The translations under genes and the position numbers were made by a program. Source: a virus. From it: a stretch of 13,110 bases of DNA. Below the pieces are notes generated by a model. That model had not been told where the DNA came from. It saw nothing but the letters and a program-made list of their open reading frames with translations, and searched no databases. The stretch lies in the UHGV virus genome UHGV-0162637, one strand, 5' to 3'. This document shows, in pieces, positions 534 through 13,110 of the stretch. Positions within the stretch are counted from its first letter, which is position 1. Each line of letters opens with the position of its first letter.

Positions 534-1058
534 TTACTCTCCTTTGATGCGAATGCCTGTTGCAATGCTGTTTATGATGCTGTCAGTGCATGGGGTAGAA
601 AGCTGGGCATCTCCAGCAATTTTCATGACCTCAACATCTGCATATCGAATACCGAGGTGTATCAGACCGGCTATACCTGACTTAAGCCGAGCATTTTCCA
701 TAAACAGATCCTTTGCCCGCTGTTTTTCTGCCTCAAGCTCAACGCGCAACTTCCCTACCGTTAACGCAATTTCCTCGTTCTCCTGATCGCGGCGTTTTAT
801 GTATTGCTGGTTTCTTTCCCGTTCATCCAGCAGCGCCTGCACTACTTCAGGGTTGAAAGCTGCGATATAACGAGCGTTGTTCTCTGCGTTTTTCTGTTCG
901 TCGAATCCTGGCCAGTCGACAATATCTCCGTGATGATTATCACCTGGTGTGTGTACGGCGTACGTGCCGTATTTGCCCGGCGAAATAAATGCGACCCATT
1001 CACCCTGTGTTGCCTGTTTTGCTAACTCACGCAGTGCCTGATAGTCAATCTTGCTCAC
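534..1058 (-). CDS. Ead/Ea22-like family phage protein (174 aa)
   Basis: GTG start at 1058 preceded by AAGGAGG at 6 nt; GTGA overlap with the stop of the upstream gene (translational coupling). Contains an AAFNPEVVQALLDERE-type segment that I recall as typical of Ead/Ea22-like proteins. Confidence 0.65.
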   Translation of the reverse strand: MSKIDYQALRELAKQATQGEWVAFISPGKYGTYAVHTPGDNHHGDIVDWPGFDEQKNAENNARYIAAFNPEVVQALLDERERNQQYIKRRDQENEEIALTVGKLRVELEAEKQRAKDLFMENARLKSGIAGLIHLGIRYADVEVMKIAGDAQLSTPCTDSIINSIATGIRIKGE

Positions 1059-1606
1059 TGGTTGCCTCCTTTGCGAAGCTGGTCGGCGAACAAACGTACA
1101 CTAGACGCTTCACTGCGTAGAAACTTAACGGCATAATCAAAACCACCTCGTTCTGCGTCGTCTGCTCCGTTGTCGAGGTTATCTGCGTACATCTCTACCC
1201 CCTGCGCCCGTACTTCAGCCAGGAAAGCATCGGTGGCTGGGGTTTCGATATCGTTAATTTCAGGAAGAATCTCTTCCCATGTGGCGATATCGCCATTCAA
1301 ATGCCATCCGGCAATTCCACTGGAGTTATCCGCAACACTGCGAACGGCTTCAATAGTTTCGAGCATTACCGCATTCTCCGCCGCAAGCGCCGAAAACTTC
1401 TCGTGTGCCAACTTAACAGCTGCATCAGCCTGCTTAATTGACTCAATCGCTCTCTGCTGGTCTTCGGACAGAGCCGAAATCTTGGCCTCCGCTTCAGCAA
1501 ATTTACGCACCAGATATTCAGCGTTTGTTTCGTTAACCTTTAAATCACTTGGGATGCATTTATCTTTCAGAAAACCATCCATCTCAATTAGTGACATTTG
1601 TTTCAT
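1055..1606 (-). CDS. Ea22-like phage protein (183 aa), function unknown
   Basis: ATG at 1606 with GGAGTGGG upstream; ATGA overlap with the stop of the upstream ORF. Size (552 nt) and position match lambda ea22 (recalled). Acidic, predicted coiled-coil-rich. Confidence 0.6.
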
Positions 1607-1767
1607 TTTTTCCCACTCCGCAACATCGCATTCAGATATTTGTTTTGATTTACTGACGGAAAAGAATTTCTCTTAAGCAATTCCTCTCTCGATGGCATTG
1701 GCTTTACGCGCTGGCGAATAATCATTTCTGCCGGAAGAATGCCGGGATTGTATGCAAGTCCTCTCAT
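1603..1767 (-). CDS. hypothetical small phage protein (54 aa)
   Basis: ATG at 1767 with GAGGAA 6 nt upstream, immediately after the TGA of the preceding gene; 3' end overlaps the Ea22-like start (ATGA). The longer 104-aa version in the ORF track overlaps the upstream gene in another frame and is unlikely. Confidence 0.4.
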
Positions 1768-1777
1768 GGTAAATTCC

Positions 1778-2071
1778 TCAGTCATTACTGATAGCGCCAT
1801 AGCGTGAGCGGTAATTACGCAGGCGCGGGTCAATTTCAGGGAAGTGGGTATATGTGGCTTTGCGGAATGGTCGGATTGATGTCTGGTAAATTCGCTCGCG
1901 TTCTTCTTTCTCTGCAAGCCATATACAGTGGCGAAATTCCTTTTCCTTTTTCGTTTCCTGCGGTAGCGACATTATCCGATCGTAGTTTTTTCTGAATTTA
2001 TCCAGCACCTCCGATACGGAATTGCCGGAACAGCGGCGCGGGTCATCCGCACCATACAGAGGCGCTGGCAT
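1778..2071 (-). CDS. hypothetical phage protein (97 aa); lies where P22 carries abc1/abc2, possibly Abc2-like (speculative)
   Basis: ATG at 2071 with AAGGA about 8 nt upstream, 23 nt after the SSB-like stop; the track ORF begins at a TTG further upstream. Position just downstream of erf and the 97-aa size resemble P22 abc2 (recalled, not verified). Confidence 0.5.
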
Positions 2072-2094
2072 AATGGAATCCTTATTTTGCAAAT

Positions 2095-2478
2095 CTAGAA
2101 GGGAATTGAATCGTCGTATTCAGGATGATTTTGATGATTGCTACTTTGCTGCTGTTGGCTGTTTCCTGAAGTTGCAAATCCAATCTTTGCATTCAGTAAT
2201 TCAAGATTGATTGATTGACCATTTTGCCCCTGATAAACATCAACCCTGATGTTTTCTCCGGTAATTTCAACAATGCCACCTTCAACAAGAACACTACGGT
2301 AGTAATCCGCTTGCGCTCCCGGCTTGGCAAATACAACGGCGCTGTAGTTTGTCCATTCTTTCTTTTTTGTCTGGCGATCGTAATACTGAACGCCAGCACG
2401 GATGTTGAATCCGATATTTTCCCCGGCCTGAAACTCTCTTGCGGGCTTGTTTAGTCTTACAGTAATCGAATGTGCCAT
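2095..2478 (-). CDS. ssb: single-stranded DNA-binding protein (SSB-like, OB fold, 127 aa)
   Basis: ATG at 2478 overlaps the erf stop (TAATG) and has AAGGAG upstream. The protein shows the SSB core pattern (EWTNYSAVVFAKPGAQADYY...VLVEGGIVEI), a Gln/Ser-rich linker and the acidic C-terminal tail DDSIPF (compare E. coli SSB DDDIPF). The 157-aa track ORF carries a non-coding N-terminal extension. Confidence 0.75.
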   Translation of the reverse strand: MAHSITVRLNKPAREFQAGENIGFNIRAGVQYYDRQTKKKEWTNYSAVVFAKPGAQADYYRSVLVEGGIVEITGENIRVDVYQGQNGQSINLELLNAKIGFATSGNSQQQQSSNHQNHPEYDDSIPF

Positions 2479-3083
2479 TAAGCAGCCGCTCCTTCTAATT
2501 CGTCTCGTCTGATGTTGTAAACGTCCTGCGCTTTGTGCTGCTCCGGTGTGCCTTCGAGCATCTTCCACGCTTTGGCGAACGCCTGTTTAAGCTCTTCTAC
2601 GGTGTTTTTCTGCATTGCTGCGTCAGTGAATGCTTTTAGAACCTGTTCAGGTGTAGGTGATGGTTTTGATTGCTTTGCTGCTGCGTTCTGCTGATGTTTA
2701 TGCTCGTCTGTATCTGCATCTTTCGCATCATCAATGCCGAACAAACCATTGAGGCAATACTTGCGTGCATAAGAGCTTGTGGCTCCCGTAACTTGTGCAG
2801 AATCCATTCCTTTCTTGCTTTCTTCCTCTCGTGCAAGAGCGGTTGCTGTATGACTGTTTTCGCCATCAGTAATAGTTGCCGTGGCTTTCACGTAATACCG
2901 TTCACCAATCAACACAACTTCATCGCTGATTGATAAAAACAGGCCATTCAGTAACGGCTTAACACCCTCAAGAATGTCTTCGCAGCTTCTGTATTTATAT
3001 TTGCCGAATGAGTTGTATTGATTCTTTGGCGCGTTCAGATTCTCCTGAATAGCTGCCAGTCTTGCGTAAAATTCTTTGCTCAT
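2478..3083 (-). CDS. erf: Erf (essential recombination function) single-strand annealing protein, P22 Erf family
   Basis: Translation from ATG 3083 (MSKEFYARLAAIQENLNAPKNQYNSFGKYKYRSCEDILEGVKPLL...) closely matches my recollection of P22 Erf. The track ORF starts at an upstream TTG; I trimmed to the first ATG. Confidence 0.85.
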   Translation of the reverse strand: MSKEFYARLAAIQENLNAPKNQYNSFGKYKYRSCEDILEGVKPLLNGLFLSISDEVVLIGERYYVKATATITDGENSHTATALAREEESKKGMDSAQVTGATSSYARKYCLNGLFGIDDAKDADTDEHKHQQNAAAKQSKPSPTPEQVLKAFTDAAMQKNTVEELKQAFAKAWKMLEGTPEQHKAQDVYNIRRDELEGAAA

Positions 3084-3172
3084 ATGATTGTTCTCAGAAT
3101 GGACATGGCCCAAGGAAATAACGCTGATTTAATACTTCAGTCTTTGCCGCATTTAAAAATACGCGAACACCT

Positions 3173-3343
3173 TCACGATCTCCCTTCTGGCGATACATTA
3201 ACGCCTGCTGAGTGTACATGCGTCTCTGTAACTTGCTCTCCTTCACTGTGGTTGAAAGTGACATGAATATCTCCTTCGTTACCGATTAAATCTTTCATCT
3301 GACGAATGAATTCTTCGTCTGACCAGTTATCTGTAAAACTCAT
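3173..3343 (-). CDS. small phage protein (56 aa) at the Kil/Arf position between cIII and erf
   Basis: ATG at 3343 overlaps the stop of the CIII-like gene (ATGA), as lambda kil overlaps cIII. Identity as Kil or Arf is positional only. Confidence 0.45.
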   Translation of the reverse strand: MSFTDNWSDEEFIRQMKDLIGNEGDIHVTFNHSEGEQVTETHVHSAGVNVSPEGRS

Positions 3344-3510
3344 GGACGGCCTTGTTGTTTCAAAATATCCCAAAGCTTTTCGAGCAAACTTTTCATTCTT
3401 GGTTGTTTAAAGTCTGCTCCGGTTAGAATGTTTTTTCGTGAATGCTGTACCGATAAAATCGGGTTGAAAGGGCGAACCGATGCCGCCCCTGCAATAGCGA
3501 ACTGTTGCAT
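3340..3510 (-). CDS. cIII: CIII-like protein (inhibitor of FtsH-mediated CII degradation), 56 aa
   Basis: ATG at 3510 with GGAG 7 nt upstream. N-terminus MQQFAIAG and the segment SLLEKLWDILKQQGRP resemble lambda CIII (MQYAIAGW..., ...RLIDILNQPGVP, recalled). The track ORF extension upstream runs through a terminator hairpin and is not coding. Confidence 0.65.
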   Translation of the reverse strand: MQQFAIAGAASVRPFNPILSVQHSRKNILTGADFKQPRMKSLLEKLWDILKQQGRP

Positions 3511-3749: not shown

Positions 3750-4199
3750 TTACTTAACCAATGATGCTGCATATTCGATAAGGTAAAGTTTTGGGGCCAG
3801 CCAAATTTTTAACCAAGTCATATTGGTTACTACACCAATAATAAAAATCCCCCACAGAGTCAAAACTCCAACCAATGGCATGATAAGAAGATTAATATCA
3901 CCTTTGCTATCCCAAACCATTGTCGGCCTGTATTTGGGATTTCCTTTCTCCCATGAATATCCTTCATCACCGATTTTACCTGTCTCAACTCTTTGGCACT
4001 GCTTCTTCATAAACCAGAAAACCAGTGGGATTGTTAGAATGGCTATTAATGTTTTAATCAGACTGTCAACCATATTCCATAGCAGCAACTGATGAACAAC
4101 ATCAGGAATCTGTGCTTGGCTAAATGAAACAGCCGCGTCTATTCCATTACTGGCTTTTTGCAGTAGTTCTACGAGAATCTTGTTTGCTTGTTCTTCCAT
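3750..4199 (-). CDS. predicted two-TM inner-membrane protein (149 aa), unknown function; candidate moron
   Basis: Intact ORF with two hydrophobic segments (about residues 47-63 and 108-128) and a charged loop between them. Sits in the slot lambda uses for ea10 between ral and cIII, with no obvious SD. Flanked by an identical 14-mer (3717-3730 and 4238-4251) and followed by a terminator. Confidence 0.7.
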   Translation of the reverse strand: MEEQANKILVELLQKASNGIDAAVSFSQAQIPDVVHQLLLWNMVDSLIKTLIAILTIPLVFWFMKKQCQRVETGKIGDEGYSWEKGNPKYRPTMVWDSKGDINLLIMPLVGVLTLWGIFIIGVVTNMTWLKIWLAPKLYLIEYAASLVK

Positions 4200-4257: not shown

Positions 4258-4458
4258 TCAGGCAGCCTTGTTGTTCTGTTTACCAAATTCTCTGGCAATC
4301 ATTGCCGTCGTTCGTATTGCCCATTTATCGACATATTTCCCATCCTCCATTACAGGAAACATTTCTTCAGGCTTAACCATGCATTCCGATTGCAGCTTGC
4401 ATTCATTGCATCGCTTGAATTGTCCACACCATTGATTCTTATCAATAGTCGTAGTCAT
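4258..4458 (-). CDS. ral: Ral restriction-alleviation protein (66 aa)
   Basis: 66-aa product MTTTIDKNQWCGQFKRCNECKLQSEC... matches my recollection of lambda Ral in length and sequence; position between the N-like gene/sieB and cIII is the same as in lambda. Confidence 0.7.
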   Translation of the reverse strand: MTTTIDKNQWCGQFKRCNECKLQSECMVKPEEMFPVMEDGKYVDKWAIRTTAMIAREFGKQNNKAA

Positions 4459-5269: not shown

Positions 5270-5542
5270 TCATCTCGCCGTCAGTTGTTTTGATTTCCGG
5301 TAGCCTGCCGAGTAAATGGCTACGTTTGGCAGGCAAATACTTCCACTGCATTCTTCTGCCTTCTTGCAGCGAAGGCTTCCGAGTGATGCTGCTTTGTCTG
5401 CTCTGACGCAACCAGAGAGCTTTAACGCAATTTTTCGCGCCAGTGCTTCATTACTGCGTCGCTCGGCAATAAGTTCTGCTCTGCGAGCTTTGTAGCGGCT
5501 TTTTGCCGTACCTTTGGATTCTTTCCAGACAATGGTTACCAT
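5270..5542 (-). CDS. N: N-like transcription antitermination protein (P22 gp24 family), 90 aa
   Basis: ATG at 5542 with AAGGAG 7 nt upstream. Arginine-rich N-terminal motif (GTAKSRYKARRAELIAERR) and C-terminus ...YSAGYRKSKQLTAR resemble P22 gp24 (recalled). First gene downstream of the PL/nutL region. Confidence 0.75.
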   Translation of the reverse strand: MVTIVWKESKGTAKSRYKARRAELIAERRSNEALARKIALKLSGCVRADKAASLGSLRCKKAEECSGSICLPNVAIYSAGYRKSKQLTAR

Positions 5543-5652
5543 GATGGTCTCCTTTAAGTGGCTTTGGCGCATGACGCGTCGAGGTGCTTATCTTCTCGAT
5601 CGCTGTCTTGCAGCTGCAATTCGCGCCATCCCCAAAACCACTCAAGTTCTGG

Positions 5653-5832: not shown

Positions 5833-5857
5833 AAATAAAAAAGGGGCGAAAGCCCCT
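5833..5857 (-). terminator. intrinsic terminator immediately after the repressor gene
   Basis: Minus strand: TAA stop, then GGGGC-TTTC-GCCCC hairpin followed by TTTTTTATTT. Classic rho-independent terminator. Confidence 0.75.
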
Positions 5858-6507
5858 TAAGGAAGGTTTGCTAGCTTGGCATCAACGACAACGCCAATGA
5901 TTTTACAGTTCCCATTGATTTCAATCATTGGGTATTGTGGATTGAGTGGTTTCAGGAATTTTCTACCGGCATCAATAACTAACTTTTTGAATGTCGCCTC
6001 GTTTTCTCCTTCAAGTTTGGCGACTACCAGCTTTCCATTACGTGGTTCGACTTCTGGGTCGACGAGAATAATCATCCCCTCAGGAATACTCAGTCCTGCC
6101 GGGGCAGTCATTGAATCGCCTTTAACGTCGAGCCAAAAAGAGTCTTCAGAACAATCTACCGTTGTGTCGTACCAGTTATCTATTGCACGCCTATGATATG
6201 GCTCTACAGCTTCCATCCAACATCCTGCGCTTACCCAACTAATTAGAGGATACGAACCTCTTGGATCATGCCTGCTGTGATAGGCAATGTTTGAAAGACT
6301 ATCCTCTCCTTTCAACAGGTAATCAGGGGAGCACTGCAAAGCCTTGGCTAAGGCCAATAGGTTTTCGCCATTGGGCTCAGTTTCAGATCGCTCCCATTGG
6401 GAAATAGCAACATTAGACACGCCAACCATCTTTCCAAGGGCAGCCTGCCTAATCTTGAGTTCTTTTCTGCGAGCGCGAATACGCTCACCCATCAGTTGTG
6501 TATTCAT
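5857..6507 (-). CDS. c2: C2/CI-type prophage repressor (HTH plus S24 LexA-like autopeptidase domain), P22 C2 family
   Basis: 216-aa product MNTQLMGERIRARRKELKIRQAALGKMVGVSNVAISQWERSE...GVVVDAKLANLP matches my recollection of P22 C2 nearly throughout. Divergent from cro across an operator region. Confidence 0.9.
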   Translation of the reverse strand: MNTQLMGERIRARRKELKIRQAALGKMVGVSNVAISQWERSETEPNGENLLALAKALQCSPDYLLKGEDSLSNIAYHSRHDPRGSYPLISWVSAGCWMEAVEPYHRRAIDNWYDTTVDCSEDSFWLDVKGDSMTAPAGLSIPEGMIILVDPEVEPRNGKLVVAKLEGENEATFKKLVIDAGRKFLKPLNPQYPMIEINGNCKIIGVVVDAKLANLP

Positions 6508-8256: not shown

Positions 8257-8788
8257 TTTTTATGCGCCGCCCCATAGCATCGAGGCAGAGCAGGCGGTGA
8301 TTGGTGGATTGCTTCTGGATGATGACAGCAGTGAGCGCGTCCAGAAAGTTCTGGCGATGCTGAAGCCTGATTCATTTTACAGCCGACCACACAAAATCCT
8401 TTTCGAAGAAATAACCAGAATGCACCGGGAGCAAAAGCCAGTAGATGGCCTGACGCTTTTCGATGAACTGGAGCGTAAATCGTTAACGGTGTCTGTTGGC
8501 GGTTTTGCTTATATCGCTGAGATCGCAAAGAACACGCCAAGCGCAGCAAACATCGTTGCCTATGCAATGCAGGTTCGTGAAACCGCAATGGAACGCTACG
8601 CCATCAACCGCATGACTGAAGCGACGGAATTGCTCTATCTCACAGTAAAAGCCGCCGGTGTGTGGGCGGGTGGCATTGAAACACCTTCGGTGGAAACTCC
8701 ATCGGAAGGTTCAAAATTTTTTGGTTTTGATATGGATAACGAATTCATCAGTGGTTTTGATGTAGGAGCATGGGGAAAATTACTCTGA
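8246..8788 (+). CDS. DnaB-family replicative helicase, N-terminal domain only (truncated, likely non-functional fragment)
   Basis: ATG 8246 with GAGGG SD, overlapping the O stop. Residues PPHSIEAEQAVIGGLLLD...SVGGFAYIAEIAKNTPSAANIVAYA align with the E. coli DnaB N-terminal domain (recalled). Similarity ends after about 140 aa and the ORF stops at 181 aa; the RecA-like ATPase domain is absent. Confidence 0.7.
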   Translation: MTDNFYAPPHSIEAEQAVIGGLLLDDDSSERVQKVLAMLKPDSFYSRPHKILFEEITRMHREQKPVDGLTLFDELERKSLTVSVGGFAYIAEIAKNTPSAANIVAYAMQVRETAMERYAINRMTEATELLYLTVKAAGVWAGGIETPSVETPSEGSKFFGFDMDNEFISGFDVGAWGKLL

Positions 8789-9690
8789 TGGCTAAAAATG
8801 AATTTAAACCATTTGCAACTGGCTCTGGTGCTAACGTAACAACTCAGACAGACTGGGAATCATTACCTGTCCTATCTGCTGGCTTTACATCGGGGAAGGC
8901 ATCAAGTGCTCAGGTGAACAAAGGTCTGAGGCAAGGAACGGCAATGGCGGCTGCTGTGGGGCAGTTTATCGCAGATAATACCAGTGAGGATGTGAAAGAT
9001 AATGGTGATATTGCGGGGCTCTCTGCGCAATTAGCGAGTGCGGTAGAGCAGGCTGCAACAGGACGGCTTATTGGTGTTCGCACAATAACGACATCCGGGA
9101 CTTATACGCCAACCCCAGGAACGAAAAGCATTATTGTTGAAGTCCAAGGCGCAGGCGGAGGAGGGGGCGGGGTTGGTACAACTAACTCTACCAGTGTTGC
9201 AGTTGGGTGTGGAGGGGGAGGTGGCGCCTACGCTAAATCCCGTATCACCAATTTAGACTCAGCATATACTGTAACCATTGGAGCTGGTGGAGCTGGTGGG
9301 GTTAACGGTAATGGAGGAAACGGTGGTGGATCTTCTTTCGGATCTATAACCGCTGGCGGTGGATTTGGTGGTGGTTCAGGAAATGGGGTACCTCCTATTA
9401 TTCAGAACTCACCAGGAATTCCTATAGCATCCGGAGGTAATATTTTAAATCTCTCTGGAGAGAATCCAACTATTGGCATGGCTATATCGACTAGCTCTAT
9501 CATCTCTGGTGGCGGAGGTAATAGTCCATTAGGTGTGGGTGGTAATCCACACGGCTCAGCGGGTATCGGTGTATTGCCGACTGGTTTCGGGGCTGGGGGC
9601 GGTGGGGCTAACGCATATGTGAATAATGCCACCCAATATAACGGAGCCGCCGGTGGTAATGGTATTGTTCTTATCTGGGAGTATGCATGA
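8788..9690 (+). CDS. glycine-rich protein (about 300 aa), possibly phage tail-fibre-like; function unknown
   Basis: Long intact ORF; ATG 8788 overlaps the stop of the helicase fragment (TGATG), with an alternative in-frame ATG at 8770. Non-glycine-rich N-terminal region of about 130 aa, then poly-Gly and GxGG tracts to the C-terminus ...GIVLIWEYA. Family assignment is tentative. Confidence 0.65.
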   Translation: MAKNEFKPFATGSGANVTTQTDWESLPVLSAGFTSGKASSAQVNKGLRQGTAMAAAVGQFIADNTSEDVKDNGDIAGLSAQLASAVEQAATGRLIGVRTITTSGTYTPTPGTKSIIVEVQGAGGGGGGVGTTNSTSVAVGCGGGGGAYAKSRITNLDSAYTVTIGAGGAGGVNGNGGNGGGSSFGSITAGGGFGGGSGNGVPPIIQNSPGIPIASGGNILNLSGENPTIGMAISTSSIISGGGGNSPLGVGGNPHGSAGIGVLPTGFGAGGGGANAYVNNATQYNGAAGGNGIVLIWEYA

Positions 9691-9866
9691 TGAAATATGC
9701 ATTGGTAGAAAATGATGTTGTGATTAACGTTATATTATGGAACGGCGATGGAAAACAATACGATGATTATCTCTGTATAAAGCTTGACGACAATAGCGTT
9801 GTTGGTGTTGGGTATACATATTCAGAGGGTAGGTTTTTGCCCCCTGAATATATTGATGAATTATAG
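9687..9866 (+). CDS. hypothetical small protein (59 aa) coupled to the glycine-rich gene
   Basis: ATG overlaps the stop of the glycine-rich ORF (ATGATGA); product MMKYALVENDVVINVILWNGDGKQYDDYLCIKLDDNSVVGVGYTYSEGRFLPPEYIDEL. Its 3' end overlaps the convergent acyltransferase stop by 6 nt. Below the ORF-track size cut-off. Confidence 0.35.
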   Translation: MMKYALVENDVVINVILWNGDGKQYDDYLCIKLDDNSVVGVGYTYSEGRFLPPEYIDEL

Positions 9867-10955
9867 TGGTGAAATATTTTTACTCATTATTAGTCTCCCT
9901 GTTCTTATAAATTTCTTTTCTACATATCTATATGATAAATCAGAAAAGACAACTAGCAAAAGAATGAAAGCGAAGAAGTATATAACTTTGTTTTCGTAAA
10001 TGACGGTGTTAAGGGAGAGTTTGTTCAAAACCTCCCTTGTTACATGTAGTAATGGTAAATGGCAAAGATAAATGCTATAAGATCTATCCCCAATCCAGTC
10101 CAGCATTTTATATGCTGGATTATCTTTTTTATCTACCACACCACCACTAATAAAACATAGAAATAATAATGCACCAGCAAAACCAATCGCAGGTAATGTC
10201 AATCTATAGTTAAAGTGCTGAGGGGCAACGAGTAAAACAAAAATGCAAACTATAATAAAAAATAGTCTTGTGCATTTATTGCTTACATAACACTTGCTTC
10301 CAGTTATGAATATAATTGCTCCCAGAAAGAATGCTTGTGGTCTAATCCACCAACCAATGGATTGATAGTACATTTGAGTTACTGGCAGGAAAGATGCAAT
10401 AGCTACTATGAATATGAAAATAATCGTCAGATTTTTCCTGTTAAAGAGCAGCATGATTGCCGCAATTATAGCATACAGTTGCCATTCCAAAGATAGAGAC
10501 CAGGTCACCGCATTCATTTGGTCACAATCATTTGCTGTTACTGCGCACCTATAGAAGTGGATATTAGAATAACCAAGTAGGGATGTATATAACGTAGTGA
10601 ATGATTTAAGAGGTGAAACACCCCAAGAAGGTTGCATAAAATAAGAGATTATTATACAGATGGTGCCCCATACAAGTAAGCATGGGGCTAGCCTAAATAT
10701 TCTTTTAGATAAAAATAATAAAAATATTTTAGTTGTTCTGCCGGTTTTTTTTATTTCCCCAGTTAAGCTTTTAGCCATCAAATATCCAGATATAGCCAAA
10801 AATATATCAACTCCAGCCCAATAATTAACGTAATTAAAACTGCTCAAATACCAATCTGGCGAAGGTAATCTATTTCTATAATGTTGTAGAATAACCATTA
10901 TTATGGCTACCGCCCTTAGCGCTTGAATGTCAAGGTTTTTATTATTTAGGGTCAT
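9861..10955 (-). CDS. acyltransferase family 3 integral membrane protein (O-antigen acetylase-like, Oac/OafA type)
   Basis: 364-aa polytopic membrane protein with the conserved N-terminal motif LDIQALRAVAIIMVILQHY and many hydrophobic segments. Visibly AT-rich compared with flanking DNA. Lies at the prophage/host boundary where P22- and Sf6-like phages carry O-antigen modification genes (recalled). Confidence 0.85.
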   Translation of the reverse strand: MTLNNKNLDIQALRAVAIIMVILQHYRNRLPSPDWYLSSFNYVNYWAGVDIFLAISGYLMAKSLTGEIKKTGRTTKIFLLFLSKRIFRLAPCLLVWGTICIIISYFMQPSWGVSPLKSFTTLYTSLLGYSNIHFYRCAVTANDCDQMNAVTWSLSLEWQLYAIIAAIMLLFNRKNLTIIFIFIVAIASFLPVTQMYYQSIGWWIRPQAFFLGAIIFITGSKCYVSNKCTRLFFIIVCIFVLLVAPQHFNYRLTLPAIGFAGALLFLCFISGGVVDKKDNPAYKMLDWIGDRSYSIYLCHLPLLHVTREVLNKLSLNTVIYENKVIYFFAFILLLVVFSDLSYRYVEKKFIRTGRLIMSKNISPL

Positions 10956-11887
10956 GCTATACTCATCTTATTTAAGAATAAATATTAGATGGTAATCATA
11001 ACCTACCATCAGCTTGCTTTCATTGCCTGGAGCATGATTGTGGCAAAAAATTAGCGCAAAAAAAACTCAAAACTGGCGAAGGTGTCGATTCGTCTTGCGC
11101 TAATGTTCTGTGCCATTTTTGTGTCACACGCAGTTTGACACCTTAGATCATTTTCAATCATGTACCATCAACTTCATTAGTGTGAATGCGGAGATGGCCT
11201 TTATAAACAGTTAGTTATGCGTGATTCTGCTAATTCGTAATGCGAAGGTCATGTGACGTTACCGTCAATCCAGTCCGCCCACCACTGCATCATTTTTCTG
11301 CGCTTAACGTAGCGGATGTCTCACTATCACACGGTGATGGTCCATTACTGCTTTGTAGAATGGATAGAGAACTGAGGATAAAAAGATATCCCAAAACCCA
11401 AAATCTCATCTTTAGGATTTGCAGAAAGGTAGGCGTGAACAGATACCTACACATGAAGACGGAGCTAGTCCAGATGTGATATTTGTGGTGATCACATACA
11501 TCATCAACGATGCTCGTTATGGTGAGTTTGATGACTACCCGCTGAAGTGAAAATTGTGTTGTGTACCAAATTGCGTACCAAACTAAAATCACAAATCATG
11601 AAACCCTTGTTCATGGCGGTTCTCAGGGGTGTTTCGCGTAATCGTGAAACAAAAAGGTAGATTGTTGCTTACCGTCATTCATCATTAGGTTAAATCCGTT
11701 ATTTCTGCTGTCTGCCAGAGTATCAAATATCACCGTGCTAATCAGCTTTAGCGCCACAATTTGGCAGCGAGTGGCAACAGATCATGTCAGATAAAAATGA
11801 GAGGGTAGTCACATTTTCTTGCACTTTATTCCAGCCAGTTCATAAGTATTTCCGTAAAAAGAACAGCTATTTGAAACTCCTGAGGGT

Positions 11888-13060
11888 TTGCTGTTGAAAC
11901 GCCGTCTTATTATTGCTGCTTCTTTGTTCGTTTTTAACTTATCGTCTGGTTTTGCGGCGGAAAACATTCCTTTTTCACCTCAGCCTCCAGAGATTCATGC
12001 CGGGTCCTGGGTATTGATGGATTACACCACCGGTCAGATCCTCACCGCGGTTAATGAGCATCAACAGCGCAATCCCGCCAGCCTGACAAAGCTGATGACG
12101 GGTTATGTCGTGGATCGCGCTATCGATAGTCATCGCATTACGCCAGACGATATTGTCACCGTGGGGCGCGATGCGTGGGCGAAAGATAATCCGGTGTTTG
12201 TCGGTTCTTCACTGATGTTTTTGAAAGAGGGCGATCGCGTATCGGTACGTGATTTAAGCCGTGGTTTAATTGTGGATTCTGGAAATGACGCTTGTGTTGC
12301 TCTGGCTGACTATATTGCCGGTGGGCAACGGCAGTTTGTTGAAATGATGAACAACTATGCCGAGAAGCTGCATCTCAAGGATACGCATTTTGAAACAGTG
12401 CATGGTCTGGATGCACCTGGCCAGCATAGCTCGGCTTATGATTTAGCTGTGCTTTCTCGCGCTATCATCCACGGCGAGCCCGAGTTTTATCATATGTACA
12501 GTGAGAAAAGTCTCACCTGGAACGGTATCACCCAGCAAAACCGTAACGGGTTGTTGTGGGATAAAACCATGAATGTTGACGGCCTGAAAACGGGTCATAC
12601 TTCTGGTGCCGGGTTTAATCTCATTGCTTCGGCTGTAGATGGGCAGCGTCGTCTCATTGCAGTGGTAATGGGGGCTGACAGTGCAAAAGGTCGTGAGGAA
12701 GAGGCAAGAAAATTACTGCGTTGGGGGCAACAAAACTTTACTACGGTGCAAATTTTGCACCGTGGGAAAAAGGTCGGAACGGAACGCATCTGGTATGGCG
12801 ATAAAGAAAATATCGACCTGGGAACGGAACAAGAGTTCTGGATGGTGCTACCGAAAGCCGAAATTCCACATATCAAAGCCAAATATACCCTTGATGGTAA
12901 AGAGCTCACCGCGCCAATTAGCGCCCATCAGCGGGTAGGGGAAATTGAACTTTACGACCGTGATAAACAGGTGGCGCACTGGCCGCTGGTTACCCTGGAA
13001 TCTGTCGGGGAAGGCGGCATGTTTTCCCGCCTGAGTGATTATTTCCACCATAAGGCCTGA
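11888..13060 (+). CDS. dacD: D-alanyl-D-alanine carboxypeptidase DacD (penicillin-binding protein 6b)
   Basis: 390-aa product with signal peptide and the SxxK (ASLTK), SGN and KTG motifs of class-C low-molecular-weight PBPs; matches E. coli DacD as recalled. The start is a TTG at 11888, so the exact start is uncertain. Confidence 0.9.
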   Translation: MLLKRRLIIAASLFVFNLSSGFAAENIPFSPQPPEIHAGSWVLMDYTTGQILTAVNEHQQRNPASLTKLMTGYVVDRAIDSHRITPDDIVTVGRDAWAKDNPVFVGSSLMFLKEGDRVSVRDLSRGLIVDSGNDACVALADYIAGGQRQFVEMMNNYAEKLHLKDTHFETVHGLDAPGQHSSAYDLAVLSRAIIHGEPEFYHMYSEKSLTWNGITQQNRNGLLWDKTMNVDGLKTGHTSGAGFNLIASAVDGQRRLIAVVMGADSAKGREEEARKLLRWGQQNFTTVQILHRGKKVGTERIWYGDKENIDLGTEQEFWMVLPKAEIPHIKAKYTLDGKELTAPISAHQRVGEIELYDRDKQVAHWPLVTLESVGEGGMFSRLSDYFHHKA

Positions 13061-13110
13061 CCTTTCTTTTGCAGCAGACTGGCAGGAGTGCGAGTCTGCT
13101 CGCATAATCA

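What the first reader, a model, noticed from the sequence alone, without database searches (positions are those of the whole stretch)
1603..2071. Two coupled small unknown proteins downstream of the recombination genes
The 97-aa and 54-aa ORFs occupy the position where P22 encodes the anti-RecBCD proteins and lambda encodes small orfs of unknown role. Small proteins here are frequently host-takeover or anti-defence factors. Neither matches anything I can recall with confidence.
Basis: inference. Interest (0 to 1): 0.35.

Follow-up and report, generated by a model that had tools for sequence, protein, structure and literature searches.

The report
Phage Abc2 plus conserved DUF2737 peptide
The two small genes are real but not new: the 97-residue one is the well-studied phage protein Abc2, which takes over the host RecBCD DNA-repair enzyme, and the 54-residue one belongs to a catalogued small-protein family (DUF2737) whose function nobody has tested.

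Summary
Both ORFs exist exactly as described, on the minus strand: 97 aa at 1778-2071 and 54 aa at 1603-1767. They lie in a lambdoid prophage early-left operon, downstream of erf and an SSB-like gene.

The 97-aa protein is Abc2. It matches Pfam PF11043 over its full length (2.6e-63), is 93% identical to P22 Abc2 and 91% identical to the solved chain 8B1T_A. Pro68 and the RecC-binding helices are kept.

The 54-aa protein is DUF2737 (PF10930), the same family as P22 orf56, HK97 gp38 and HK446 gp28. It is a real gene: dN/dS is 0.09-0.28 with saturated synonymous sites. It sits 10 nt downstream of abc2 in 90 of 93 loci, and it also follows Abc2 homologues that are only 27-34% identical. Its stop codon overlaps the start of an EaE/Oad2-family gene.

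A 28-residue core of DUF2737 also occurs in phages that lack Abc2: virulent Jersey-like phages and a RecT/Exo lambdoid. The protein is very basic (pI 11) and has no predicted globular fold. No function has been published.

Low novelty.

The parts
1778..2071 (-). abc2: 97-aa anti-RecBCD protein 2 (modifies RecBCD by binding RecC)
   Evidence: PF11043 at 2.6e-63, residues 1-97 against profile 1-97. phrog_656 'abc2 anti-RecBCD' at 4.8e-55. PDB 8b1t_A at 7.8e-58, full length. 92.8% identical to P22 Abc2 and 100% identical to HK544 Abc2. Pro68 is conserved.
2079..2083 (-). Shine-Dalgarno-like AAGGA, 7 nt upstream of the abc2 ATG
   Evidence: Read directly from the minus-strand sequence.
1768..1780 (-). 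abc2 stop codon plus the 10-nt spacer (TGAGGAATTTACC). The GAGGA Shine-Dalgarno for the next ORF (1775-1779) overlaps the stop.
   Evidence: The 16-nt junction TGAGGAATTTACCATG is identical in 81 of 90 loci, and the 10-nt gap occurs in 90 of 93.
1603..1767 (-). DUF2737 gene: 54-aa basic peptide, orthologue of P22 orf56, HK97 gp38 and HK446 gp28; function unknown
   Evidence: PF10930 at 3.4e-32 over the full length; phrog_1117 at 1.3e-37. 77% identical to P22 orf56 and 94% to HK446 gp28. dN/dS 0.09-0.28. pI 11.0. AF2 gives pLDDT 72.8 and pTM 0.28 with three short helices.
1603..1606 (-). ATGA overlap: the DUF2737 stop codon overlaps the start codon of the downstream EaE/Oad2-family gene
   Evidence: An ATG overlapping the stop is seen in 92 of 93 loci and also in L090, L091 and ENT47670.
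1055..1606 (-). Context: 183-aa EaE / HK97 gp37 / Oad2-family gene immediately downstream
   Evidence: phrog_614 at 4.2e-57. 40% identical (2e-37) to HK446 gp27 = Oad2 and 61% identical to HK75 gp28. The Oad2 function comes from bioRxiv 10.64898/2026.07.10.737580.
2095..2478 (-). Context: SSB-like protein (HK97 gp40 / HK446 gp31) with a C-terminal DDSIPF tip. It occupies the slot that abc1 fills in P22.
   Evidence: phrog_44 at 9e-28. 98% identical to HK446 gp31. P22 gene order.
2478..3083 (-). Context: erf, the single-strand annealing protein that Abc2 is thought to serve
   Evidence: PF04404 at 2.8e-44; phrog_155 at 2.4e-57. 99.5% identical to HK97 Erf.

Best explanation
The finding covers two adjacent genes of the N-antiterminated early-left (PL) operon of a lambdoid prophage.

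(1) The 97-aa gene is abc2. By close orthology to P22 Abc2, its product binds the Chi-recognition ('inactivated helicase') domains of RecC as an extended helical protein. It engages the host prolyl isomerase PpiB through Pro68. It leaves the RecBCD helicase and nuclease running but makes the enzyme blind to Chi. In Murphy's model the hijacked enzyme then feeds ssDNA to the phage annealing protein Erf instead of RecA. This fits a Rec module that has Erf and an SSB-like protein but no exonuclease. The identity is shown here; the mechanism is taken from work on P22 Abc2.

(2) The 54-aa gene encodes a real, strongly conserved DUF2737 peptide with no known function. My best reading, which is inference, is that it is an autonomous small effector. 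It is a 6-kDa, very basic, largely unfolded peptide. Its conserved 28-residue motif ([23 protein letters not shown], two short helices flanking an invariant RNSF loop) would dock onto a conserved enterobacterial or defence-system component early in infection. Lambdoid phages carry it at the boundary between the Rec module and the EaE/Ea22 anti-defence accessory genes. It is not an allele-specific subunit of Abc2.
For: Abc2 identity:
- Pfam, PHROG and PDB matches all span the full length.
- It differs from P22 Abc2 at 7 of 97 positions, only two of them (L32R, E42K) within residues 3-52, which lie on RecC. Pro68 is kept (PMC9836394).
- The operon context is N, ral, erf, SSB-like, abc2, and no exonuclease was found among the Rec-module ORFs scanned.

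DUF2737 is a real gene:
- pS is 0.68-0.95 against pN of 0.18-0.42 in comparisons with six homologues; the closest pair, window vs HK97, is lower (pS 0.20, pN 0.06). dN/dS is 0.09-0.28.
- No Rfam family reaches threshold in the window.

Linkage:
- abc2 lies 10 nt upstream in 90 of 93 loci.
- Distant Abc2 homologues (27-34% identity; hhalign probability 98.9%, E 4e-17) still precede DUF2737 in L090, L091 and Flyfo phage L093.

Autonomy:
- Divergence of Abc2 alleles and DUF2737 alleles is uncorrelated (Spearman 0.04). DUF2737 copies 100% identical to the window's sit next to Abc2 copies that are 62-75% identical.
- DUF2737 occurs without Abc2 in the RecT/Exo phage ENT47670.
- Its core motif occurs in virulent Guernseyvirinae (Jersey gp67, Bas73_0075, Tsm2_26), inside clusters of tiny genes.
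- 698 phage records carry DUF2737 against 225 that carry Abc2.

Peptide character:
- AF2 with a 47-sequence alignment gives pTM 0.28 and only short helices at 12-15, 27-32 and 43-51.
- Foldseek against the PDB returns nothing.
- pI is 11.0.
- Conservation is concentrated in R33, N34, S35, F36, N42 and L45.
Against: No experiment exists for any DUF2737 member. One annotation-only paper mentions the family, and the HK446/HK75 study tested gp33, Erf, gp31, Abc2 and gp27 but does not mention gp28.

The near-perfect synteny with abc2, kept even across deep Abc2 divergence, could equally mean a shared RecBCD-related function. The invariant stop/start overlap with the EaE/Oad2-family gene could mean a functional pair with that protein instead.

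The allele-shuffling test is weak because most sampled DUF2737 copies are nearly identical. The IMG/VR loci are the 80 best matches, not a random sample.

For Abc2, binding to the RecC of this particular host was not tested.
Confidence: 0.6

Rival explanations
1. DUF2737 is a third component of the Abc system: a cofactor that works with Abc2 on RecBCD, for example by helping to load Erf or by blocking RecA loading.
For: It lies directly downstream of abc2 with a fixed 10-nt spacer in 90 of 93 loci. The pairing persists with Abc2 homologues of only 27-34% identity. Full-length DUF2737 is found in 223 phage records, close to the 225 that carry Abc2. The published work notes that P22 recombination needs extra, poorly understood factors, Abc1 and Arf.
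Against: Abc2 on its own binds RecBCD and changes its behaviour in the published work (PMC9836394). DUF2737 occurs without any Abc2 in ENT47670 and in Guernseyvirinae. Abc2 and DUF2737 alleles do not co-vary. In HK446-type loci a 96-aa gene is inserted between the two.
Confidence: 0.2
2. DUF2737 is a functional partner of the downstream EaE/Ead/Ea22-family (Oad2-like) protein, such as a co-translated subunit, chaperone or modulator of that anti-defence protein.
For: Its stop codon overlaps the start of the downstream gene in 92 of 93 loci, and the same overlap occurs in the Abc2-less or divergent loci ENT47670, L090 and L091. In the virulent Serratia phage Tsm2 the DUF2737-core gene again overlaps the start of an Ead/Ea22-like ORF. 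HK446 gp27, the gene after its DUF2737, is the anti-OLD protein Oad2.
Against: The preprint reports that Oad2 alone is sufficient to inhibit OLD in vivo and that it binds OLD in vitro. The downstream protein is highly mosaic (35-84% identity) while DUF2737 stays nearly constant. P22 EaE and Jersey gp68 have unrelated N-termini. Overlapping stop/start codons are common in compact phage operons.
Confidence: 0.15
3. The 54-aa ORF has no function as a protein. It would serve only as a translated spacer that couples ribosomes from abc2 to the downstream gene, or as a spurious ORF over a nucleic-acid element.
For: It is very short, has no predicted fold, and is tightly packed between two genes.
Against: The amino-acid sequence is under strong purifying selection while synonymous sites are saturated. 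The same 28-residue motif is kept in unrelated genomic contexts and with different N-termini across 106 clusters at 50% identity. No Rfam family reaches threshold.
Confidence: 0.03

Closest known systems
Bacteriophage P22 Abc2 (anti-RecBCD protein 2; Pfam PF11043; PDB 8B1T/8B1U)
   Same: Same length (97 aa) and 92.8% identity. Pro68 is present. The N-terminal RecC-binding helices are nearly unchanged. Same position downstream of erf in the PL operon, and same following gene.
   Different: Seven substitutions, mostly in the C-terminal third, which is disordered in the structure. The upstream neighbour is an SSB-like gene (HK97 gp40 type) rather than abc1. The host is Escherichia-type rather than Salmonella; the published structure itself uses E. 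coli RecBCD.
P22 orf56 / HK97 gp38 / HK446 gp28 (Pfam PF10930 DUF2737; phrog_1117)
   Same: The 54-aa ORF is 77%, 93% and 94% identical to these three respectively. It has the same position and the same stop/start overlap with an EaE-type gene.
   Different: Nothing of substance; it is an ordinary member. The family has no assigned function.
Guernseyvirinae small proteins carrying the DUF2737 core (Jersey gp67; phrog_4684)
   Same: They share the C-terminal motif P-x-P-[ST]-R-x-E-L-[LM]-K-R-N-S-F-P-x-x-x-x-N-K-Y-L-N and a basic tail.
   Different: Their N-terminal halves are unrelated. The phages are virulent siphoviruses, with no Abc2 in the regions inspected around the gene. The gene sits in a cluster of tiny genes after the lysis cassette.
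Lambda Gam and T7 gp5.9 (RecBCD inhibitors that block the DNA-binding site)
   Same: Small phage proteins aimed at RecBCD and encoded in or near Rec modules.
   Different: [quoted passage not shown] Abc2 instead modifies the enzyme through RecC. From general knowledge these DNA-mimic inhibitors are acidic, whereas DUF2737 is strongly basic (pI 11), so it does not look like a DNA mimic.
Oad2 (HK446 gp27; EaE family), inhibitor of the P2 OLD abortive-infection tRNase
   Same: It is the family of the gene translationally coupled to DUF2737 in this window (40% identity). It lies in the same recombination/anti-defence hotspot.
   Different: It is a different protein of about 175 aa with no sequence relation to either ORF of the finding. 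It is relevant only as context.

Membership tests
Abc2 (Pfam PF11043, Anti-RecBCD_p2) | Full-length match to the family profile above the curated cutoff | tested here: met
   210.7 bits against a cutoff of 25; residues 1-97 against profile 1-97. phrog_656 at 4.8e-55.
Abc2 (Pfam PF11043, Anti-RecBCD_p2) | Close identity to the experimentally characterised P22 protein and the solved chain | tested here: met
   92.8% identical to NC_002371 Abc2 and 90.7% to 8b1t_A, with no gaps.
Abc2 (Pfam PF11043, Anti-RecBCD_p2) | Conserved RecC-contacting helical region (residues 3-52/66) and Pro68, which enters the PpiB active site | tested here: met
   Only L32R and E42K differ within residues 3-52, plus A65S. 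Pro68 is present and invariant in 8 diverse Abc2 sequences, and a proline is kept at the aligned position in the distant homologues.
Abc2 (Pfam PF11043, Anti-RecBCD_p2) | Encoded in a Rec module with an annealing protein but no phage exonuclease | tested here: met
   Erf at 2478-3083 and an SSB-like gene at 2095-2478. No exonuclease family was found among the Rec-module ORFs scanned.
Abc2 (Pfam PF11043, Anti-RecBCD_p2) | Physical binding to RecC and loss of the Chi response in RecBCD | not testable with these tools
   Needs biochemistry. Inferred from P22 Abc2 (PMC9836394).
DUF2737 (Pfam PF10930) | Full-length match to the family profile above the curated cutoff | tested here: met
   110.5 bits against a cutoff of 25; residues 1-53 against profile 1-53. 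phrog_1117 at 1.3e-37.
DUF2737 (Pfam PF10930) | Conserved core motif with RNSF and N-K-Y-L | tested here: met
   R33 is invariant; E29, N34, S35, F36, N42 and L45 are at least 90% conserved in 47 diverse members. The window sequence has all of them.
P22 Abc1 (considered for the 54-aa ORF) | Sequence similarity to the ~94-aa HTH protein located between erf and abc2 | tested here: not met
   tblastn of P22 Abc1 against the window gives no hit at E <= 0.01. The 54-aa ORF lies downstream of abc2, not upstream, and has a different size.
DNA-mimic RecBCD inhibitors (lambda Gam / T7 gp5.9 type; considered for the 54-aa ORF) | Acidic protein that imitates DNA | tested here: not met
   pI 11.0, with 11 K+R against 3 D+E. 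No Pfam or PDB similarity.
Known anti-phage defence proteins (PADLOC) | Match to any defence-system profile | tested here: not met
   No hit for the 54-aa ORF. Only a chance-level hit (E 0.024) for Abc2.

The most novel reading that the evidence does not exclude
DUF2737 would be an unrecognised counter-defence or host-takeover peptide shared by temperate lambdoid and virulent Jersey-like enterobacterial phages. Its 28-residue RNSF/NKYL motif would neutralise a conserved host factor or a defence system that senses phage recombination functions or RecBCD manipulation. That would explain why lambdoid phages keep it wedged between abc2 and the Oad2-type anti-OLD gene.
Probability: 0.3. Interest if true: 0.55.

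Novelty: already known. Interest (0 to 1): 0.2.

Why it matters
For genome annotation the result is simple. The window carries a standard Erf, SSB-like, Abc2 recombination module of the HK97/HK022/P22 type, and the first ORF can be named abc2 with high confidence.

The one open point is DUF2737. It is a tiny, strongly constrained peptide found in about a quarter of complete E. coli genomes and in hundreds of phages, including well-studied ones such as P22 and HK97. It sits in a region now known to hold both triggers and inhibitors of abortive-infection systems: Gp33, which triggers OLD, and Oad2, which inhibits it. No paper found here tests it, although clean deletion mutants in HK97 or P22 should be feasible. 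If it proves to be an effector, it would add a new short-motif inhibitor and would help explain the persistent architecture of lambdoid Rec modules.

Tried and rejected
- Solved-structure search for the 54-aa ORF: only a chance hit, E 1.8.
- NCBIfam and PADLOC scans: nothing useful.
- Rfam over the whole window: no family reaches threshold, so there is no RNA-element explanation.
- AF2 with a 47-sequence alignment gave no compact fold (pTM 0.28). Foldseek against the PDB returned zero matches. No structural analogy can be drawn.
- The exhaustive profile search of 1.84 billion representatives found only 106 small clusters, many of them fragments or frameshift fusions, and no long cellular protein carrying the motif. 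There is therefore no evidence of mimicry of a host protein.
- Supplements of the accessory-gene screen (bioRxiv 10.1101/2023.04.06.535777) were searched for the peptide and for 'DUF2737': no occurrences.
- Literature searches for DUF2737 and for orf56 found only annotation mentions.
- I considered that the 54-aa ORF might be Abc1. Rejected: no similarity and the wrong position.
- I first took the window ORF at 3094-3264 to be the Gp33 homologue. It is not. The Gp33 homologue lies at 3176-3343.
- Natural DUF2737 fusions to downstream proteins (P0121, P0126, P0127, P0137) were not used as Rosetta-stone evidence. With an ATGA overlap, a one-base frameshift or a small deletion would produce them.

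Full report
**Observation.** The window carries two adjacent minus-strand ORFs at exactly the stated limits. The 97-codon ORF runs from ATG 2071-2069 to TGA 1780-1778. The 54-codon ORF runs from ATG 1767-1765 to TGA 1605-1603. AAGGA lies 7 nt upstream of the first ATG. The second ATG is 10 nt past the first stop, with GAGGA overlapping that stop. The second ORF's TGA overlaps the ATG of the next gene (ATGA). No promoter-like or terminator-like site was found on the minus strand between 2943 and 32, so the ORFs belong to one transcription unit.

**Context.** The surroundings are a lambdoid early-left operon, all on the minus strand:
- CI-type repressor, 5857-6507
- N, 5270-5572
- Ral, 4258-4458
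- Erf, 2478-3083
- an SSB-like protein, 2095-2478
- the two ORFs of the finding
- an EaE-type gene, 1055-1606
- Ead/Ea22, 534-1058
- ea8.5, 50-331

**The 97-aa ORF is Abc2.** It matches Pfam PF11043 (Anti-RecBCD_p2) end to end at 2.6e-63, and phrog_656 'abc2 anti-RecBCD' at 4.8e-55. It matches the solved chain 8B1T_A/8B1U over residues 1-97 at 7.8e-58. It is 92.8% identical to P22 Abc2 and 100% identical to the annotated Abc2 of phage HK544. RefSeq calls the same gene 'phage anti-RecBCD protein' in E. coli genomes.

Seven residues differ from P22 Abc2. Only L32R and E42K fall within residues 3-52, the part ordered on RecC in the cryo-EM structure. Pro68, which the structure places in the PpiB active site, is present and is invariant in eight diverse Abc2 alleles.

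The mechanism follows from the P22 work (PMC9836394). [quoted passage not shown] It abolishes the response to Chi and is thought to redirect the enzyme's ssDNA product to Erf. The window's Rec module has Erf and an SSB-like protein, and no exonuclease was found among the ORFs scanned. That matches the module type in which Abc2 is expected. No Chi octamer occurs in the phage-derived part of the window. That is consistent, but the region is too short for the absence to mean much.

**The 54-aa ORF is DUF2737.** It matches PF10930 over its full length (3.4e-32) and phrog_1117 (1.3e-37). It is 77% identical to P22 orf56, which lies directly downstream of abc2 in P22 itself. It is 93% identical to HK97 gp38 and 94% to HK446 gp28.

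It is a real coding gene. Against P22 and four more distant homologues, synonymous sites are largely saturated (pS 0.68-0.95) while pN is 0.18-0.42. Against the close relative HK97, pS is 0.20 and pN 0.06. Where dN/dS can be computed it is 0.09-0.28. No Rfam family reaches threshold anywhere in the window.

The family is small. An exhaustive profile search of 1.84 billion representative proteins found 106 clusters, many of them fragments. Named members are enterobacterial or their phages. Only one paper in the library mentions DUF2737, as an annotation label.

**Anatomy of DUF2737.** Aligning 47 diverse members shows that conservation lies in the C-terminal half: [14 protein letters not shown]-x-S-V-N-x-N-K-Y-L. 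R33 is invariant, and E29, N34, S35, F36, N42 and L45 are at least 90% conserved. The N-terminal 20-25 residues come in several unrelated versions.

The window protein is 6.2 kDa with pI 11.0. AlphaFold2 with that alignment gives mean pLDDT 72.8 but pTM 0.28. It predicts only short helices at 12-15, 27-32 and 43-51 and no compact fold. Foldseek against the PDB returns nothing, and sequence search of the PDB gives only a chance hit. This is the profile of a peptide that folds on a partner, not of an enzyme or a DNA mimic.

**Linkage to abc2.** I analysed 93 loci that carry both genes: 80 from IMG/VR, five from GTDB genomes, seven reference phages or prophages, and the window itself. In 90 of them abc2 ends exactly 10 nt before the DUF2737 ATG. 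The 16-nt junction is identical in 81. The other three carry a 297-nt insert encoding a 96-aa protein (HK446 gp29).

The pairing is old. In a Pseudocitrobacter prophage (L090), in a contig labelled Chryseobacterium (L091) and in Flyfo phage Tbat2_3 (L093), DUF2737 is preceded by 97-102-aa proteins that are only 27-34% identical to Abc2. They miss the Pfam model at E 0.1. Profile-profile comparison shows they are full-length Abc2 homologues (hhalign probability 98.9%, E 4e-17), with the proline retained.

In the phage database, full-length DUF2737 (223 records) and Abc2 (225 records) have almost the same frequency.

**Independence from abc2.** Three observations argue against an obligate Abc2 partner.
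- DUF2737 copies 100% identical to the window's sit beside Abc2 alleles that are 62-75% identical. Across 67 distinct pairs, divergence of the two proteins is uncorrelated (Spearman 0.04).
- Cronobacter phage ENT47670 has a RecT/exonuclease module and no Abc2, yet carries DUF2737 in the equivalent position.
- The core motif is found in 698 phage records. Most are virulent Guernseyvirinae (Jersey gp67, Kagunavirus Bas73_0075, Serratia Tsm2_26). There it lies in a run of tiny genes after the lysis cassette, with no Abc2.

**Linkage to the downstream gene.** The DUF2737 stop overlaps the start of the next gene in 92 of 93 loci, and the overlap also holds in ENT47670, L090 and L091. In the lambdoid loci that gene is nearly always an EaE / HK97 gp37-type protein (two of the IMG/VR loci lacked a full-length match). 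In Tsm2 it is an Ead/Ea22-like protein.

A July 2026 preprint (10.64898/2026.07.10.737580) reports that HK446 gp27 is Oad2, a direct inhibitor of the P2 OLD abortive-infection tRNase. HK446 gp27 is the gene immediately after that phage's DUF2737. The preprint also reports that Gp33 of HK75/HK446 triggers OLD.

The window's 183-aa ORF is 40% identical to Oad2 and 61% identical to the HK75 homologue, which reportedly does not inhibit OLD. The window also carries a 95%-identical Gp33 at 3176-3343. The preprint does not mention gp28, which is DUF2737. It reports Oad2 alone as sufficient, so DUF2737 is not required for that activity.

**Interpretation.** The Abc2 identification is secure. Its mechanism is inherited from P22 and not re-tested here.

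For DUF2737 the evidence supports a real, constrained, early-expressed small basic peptide with a docking-type motif. It sits in the hotspot between the Rec module and the EaE/Ea22 accessory genes. I rank the readings as follows:
- autonomous effector against a conserved host or defence component (about 0.4 on its own)
- Abc2/RecBCD cofactor (0.2)
- partner of the EaE/Oad2-type protein (0.15)
- non-functional spacer (0.03)

None can be decided without experiments or multimer modelling, which were not available here.

**Verdict.** One gene is a textbook anti-RecBCD protein and the other is a catalogued DUF. Both exact protein sequences are already in public phage genomes. Novelty: already known. 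Interest is low (0.2). The residual value is that DUF2737 remains untested in the literature searched, despite its prevalence and its now interesting neighbourhood.

Noticed in passing
window 1055-1606 (-): The 183-aa gene whose start overlaps the DUF2737 stop belongs to the EaE / HK97 gp37 family. It is 40% identical to HK446 gp27 (Oad2), reported in a July 2026 preprint to inhibit the P2 OLD abortive-infection tRNase. It is 61% identical to the HK75 homologue, which reportedly does not inhibit OLD.
   Followed up: partly
window 3176-3343 (-): A 56-aa ORF is 94.6% identical to HK75 Gp33, reported in the same preprint to be sufficient to trigger OLD toxicity. Its N-terminus (SDEEFI) resembles P22 Arf. 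The ORF listing extends it to an upstream TTG at 3373.
   Followed up: partly
window 2095-2478 (-): An SSB-like protein (HK97 gp40 / HK446 gp31, 98% identical) ends in DDSIPF, like the partner-binding tip of host SSB. It occupies the slot that abc1 fills in P22. Pfam does not recognise it; only phrog_44 does.
   Followed up: partly
window about 8638-13110: Similarity to lambdoid phage regions in E. coli genomes stops near 8638, after cII and a 296-aa replication-type ORF. Beyond that lie a glycine-rich-domain ORF (8770-9690, containing the window's only two Chi octamers at 9283-9299), an Acyl_transf_3 gene (9861-10955, minus strand) and a DacD-like penicillin-binding protein (11888-13060). The prophage looks truncated or rearranged next to dacD. 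No complete E. coli genome in the collection covers more than 45% of the window.
   Followed up: partly
L098 1694-1984 (HK446 gp29); L090 3702-3992; L093 2818-3114: A conserved ~96-aa gene (Sf6 gene 24-like; mis-annotated as 'replication initiation protein' in RefSeq HK446) is sometimes inserted between abc2 and DUF2737. It appears both in close relatives and in the distant Abc2-like loci. It gives only a weak DUF5405 hit (E 0.037).
   Followed up: no
L090 3395-3691; L091 3697-3990; L093 2501-2809: These divergent Abc2 homologues (27-34% identity) are missed by Pfam PF11043 at E 0.1 but are clearly related by profile-profile comparison (probability 98.9%). Surveys that rely on PF11043 therefore undercount Abc2-type RecBCD modifiers. 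In L091 the upstream neighbour is an Rv2179c-like 3'-5' exoribonuclease.
   Followed up: partly
L091 (CACSKA010000001.1, labelled Chryseobacterium sp.): A typical enterobacterial lambdoid Rec module (SSB, exonuclease, Abc2-like, DUF2737, EaE-like) sits in a contig labelled Chryseobacterium. This may be a mislabelled or contaminated assembly.
   Followed up: no
window 3750-4199 (-): A 149-aa ORF between ral and the cIII/kil region appears hydrophobic and has no Pfam match. It could be a membrane-associated exclusion or moron protein.
   Followed up: no
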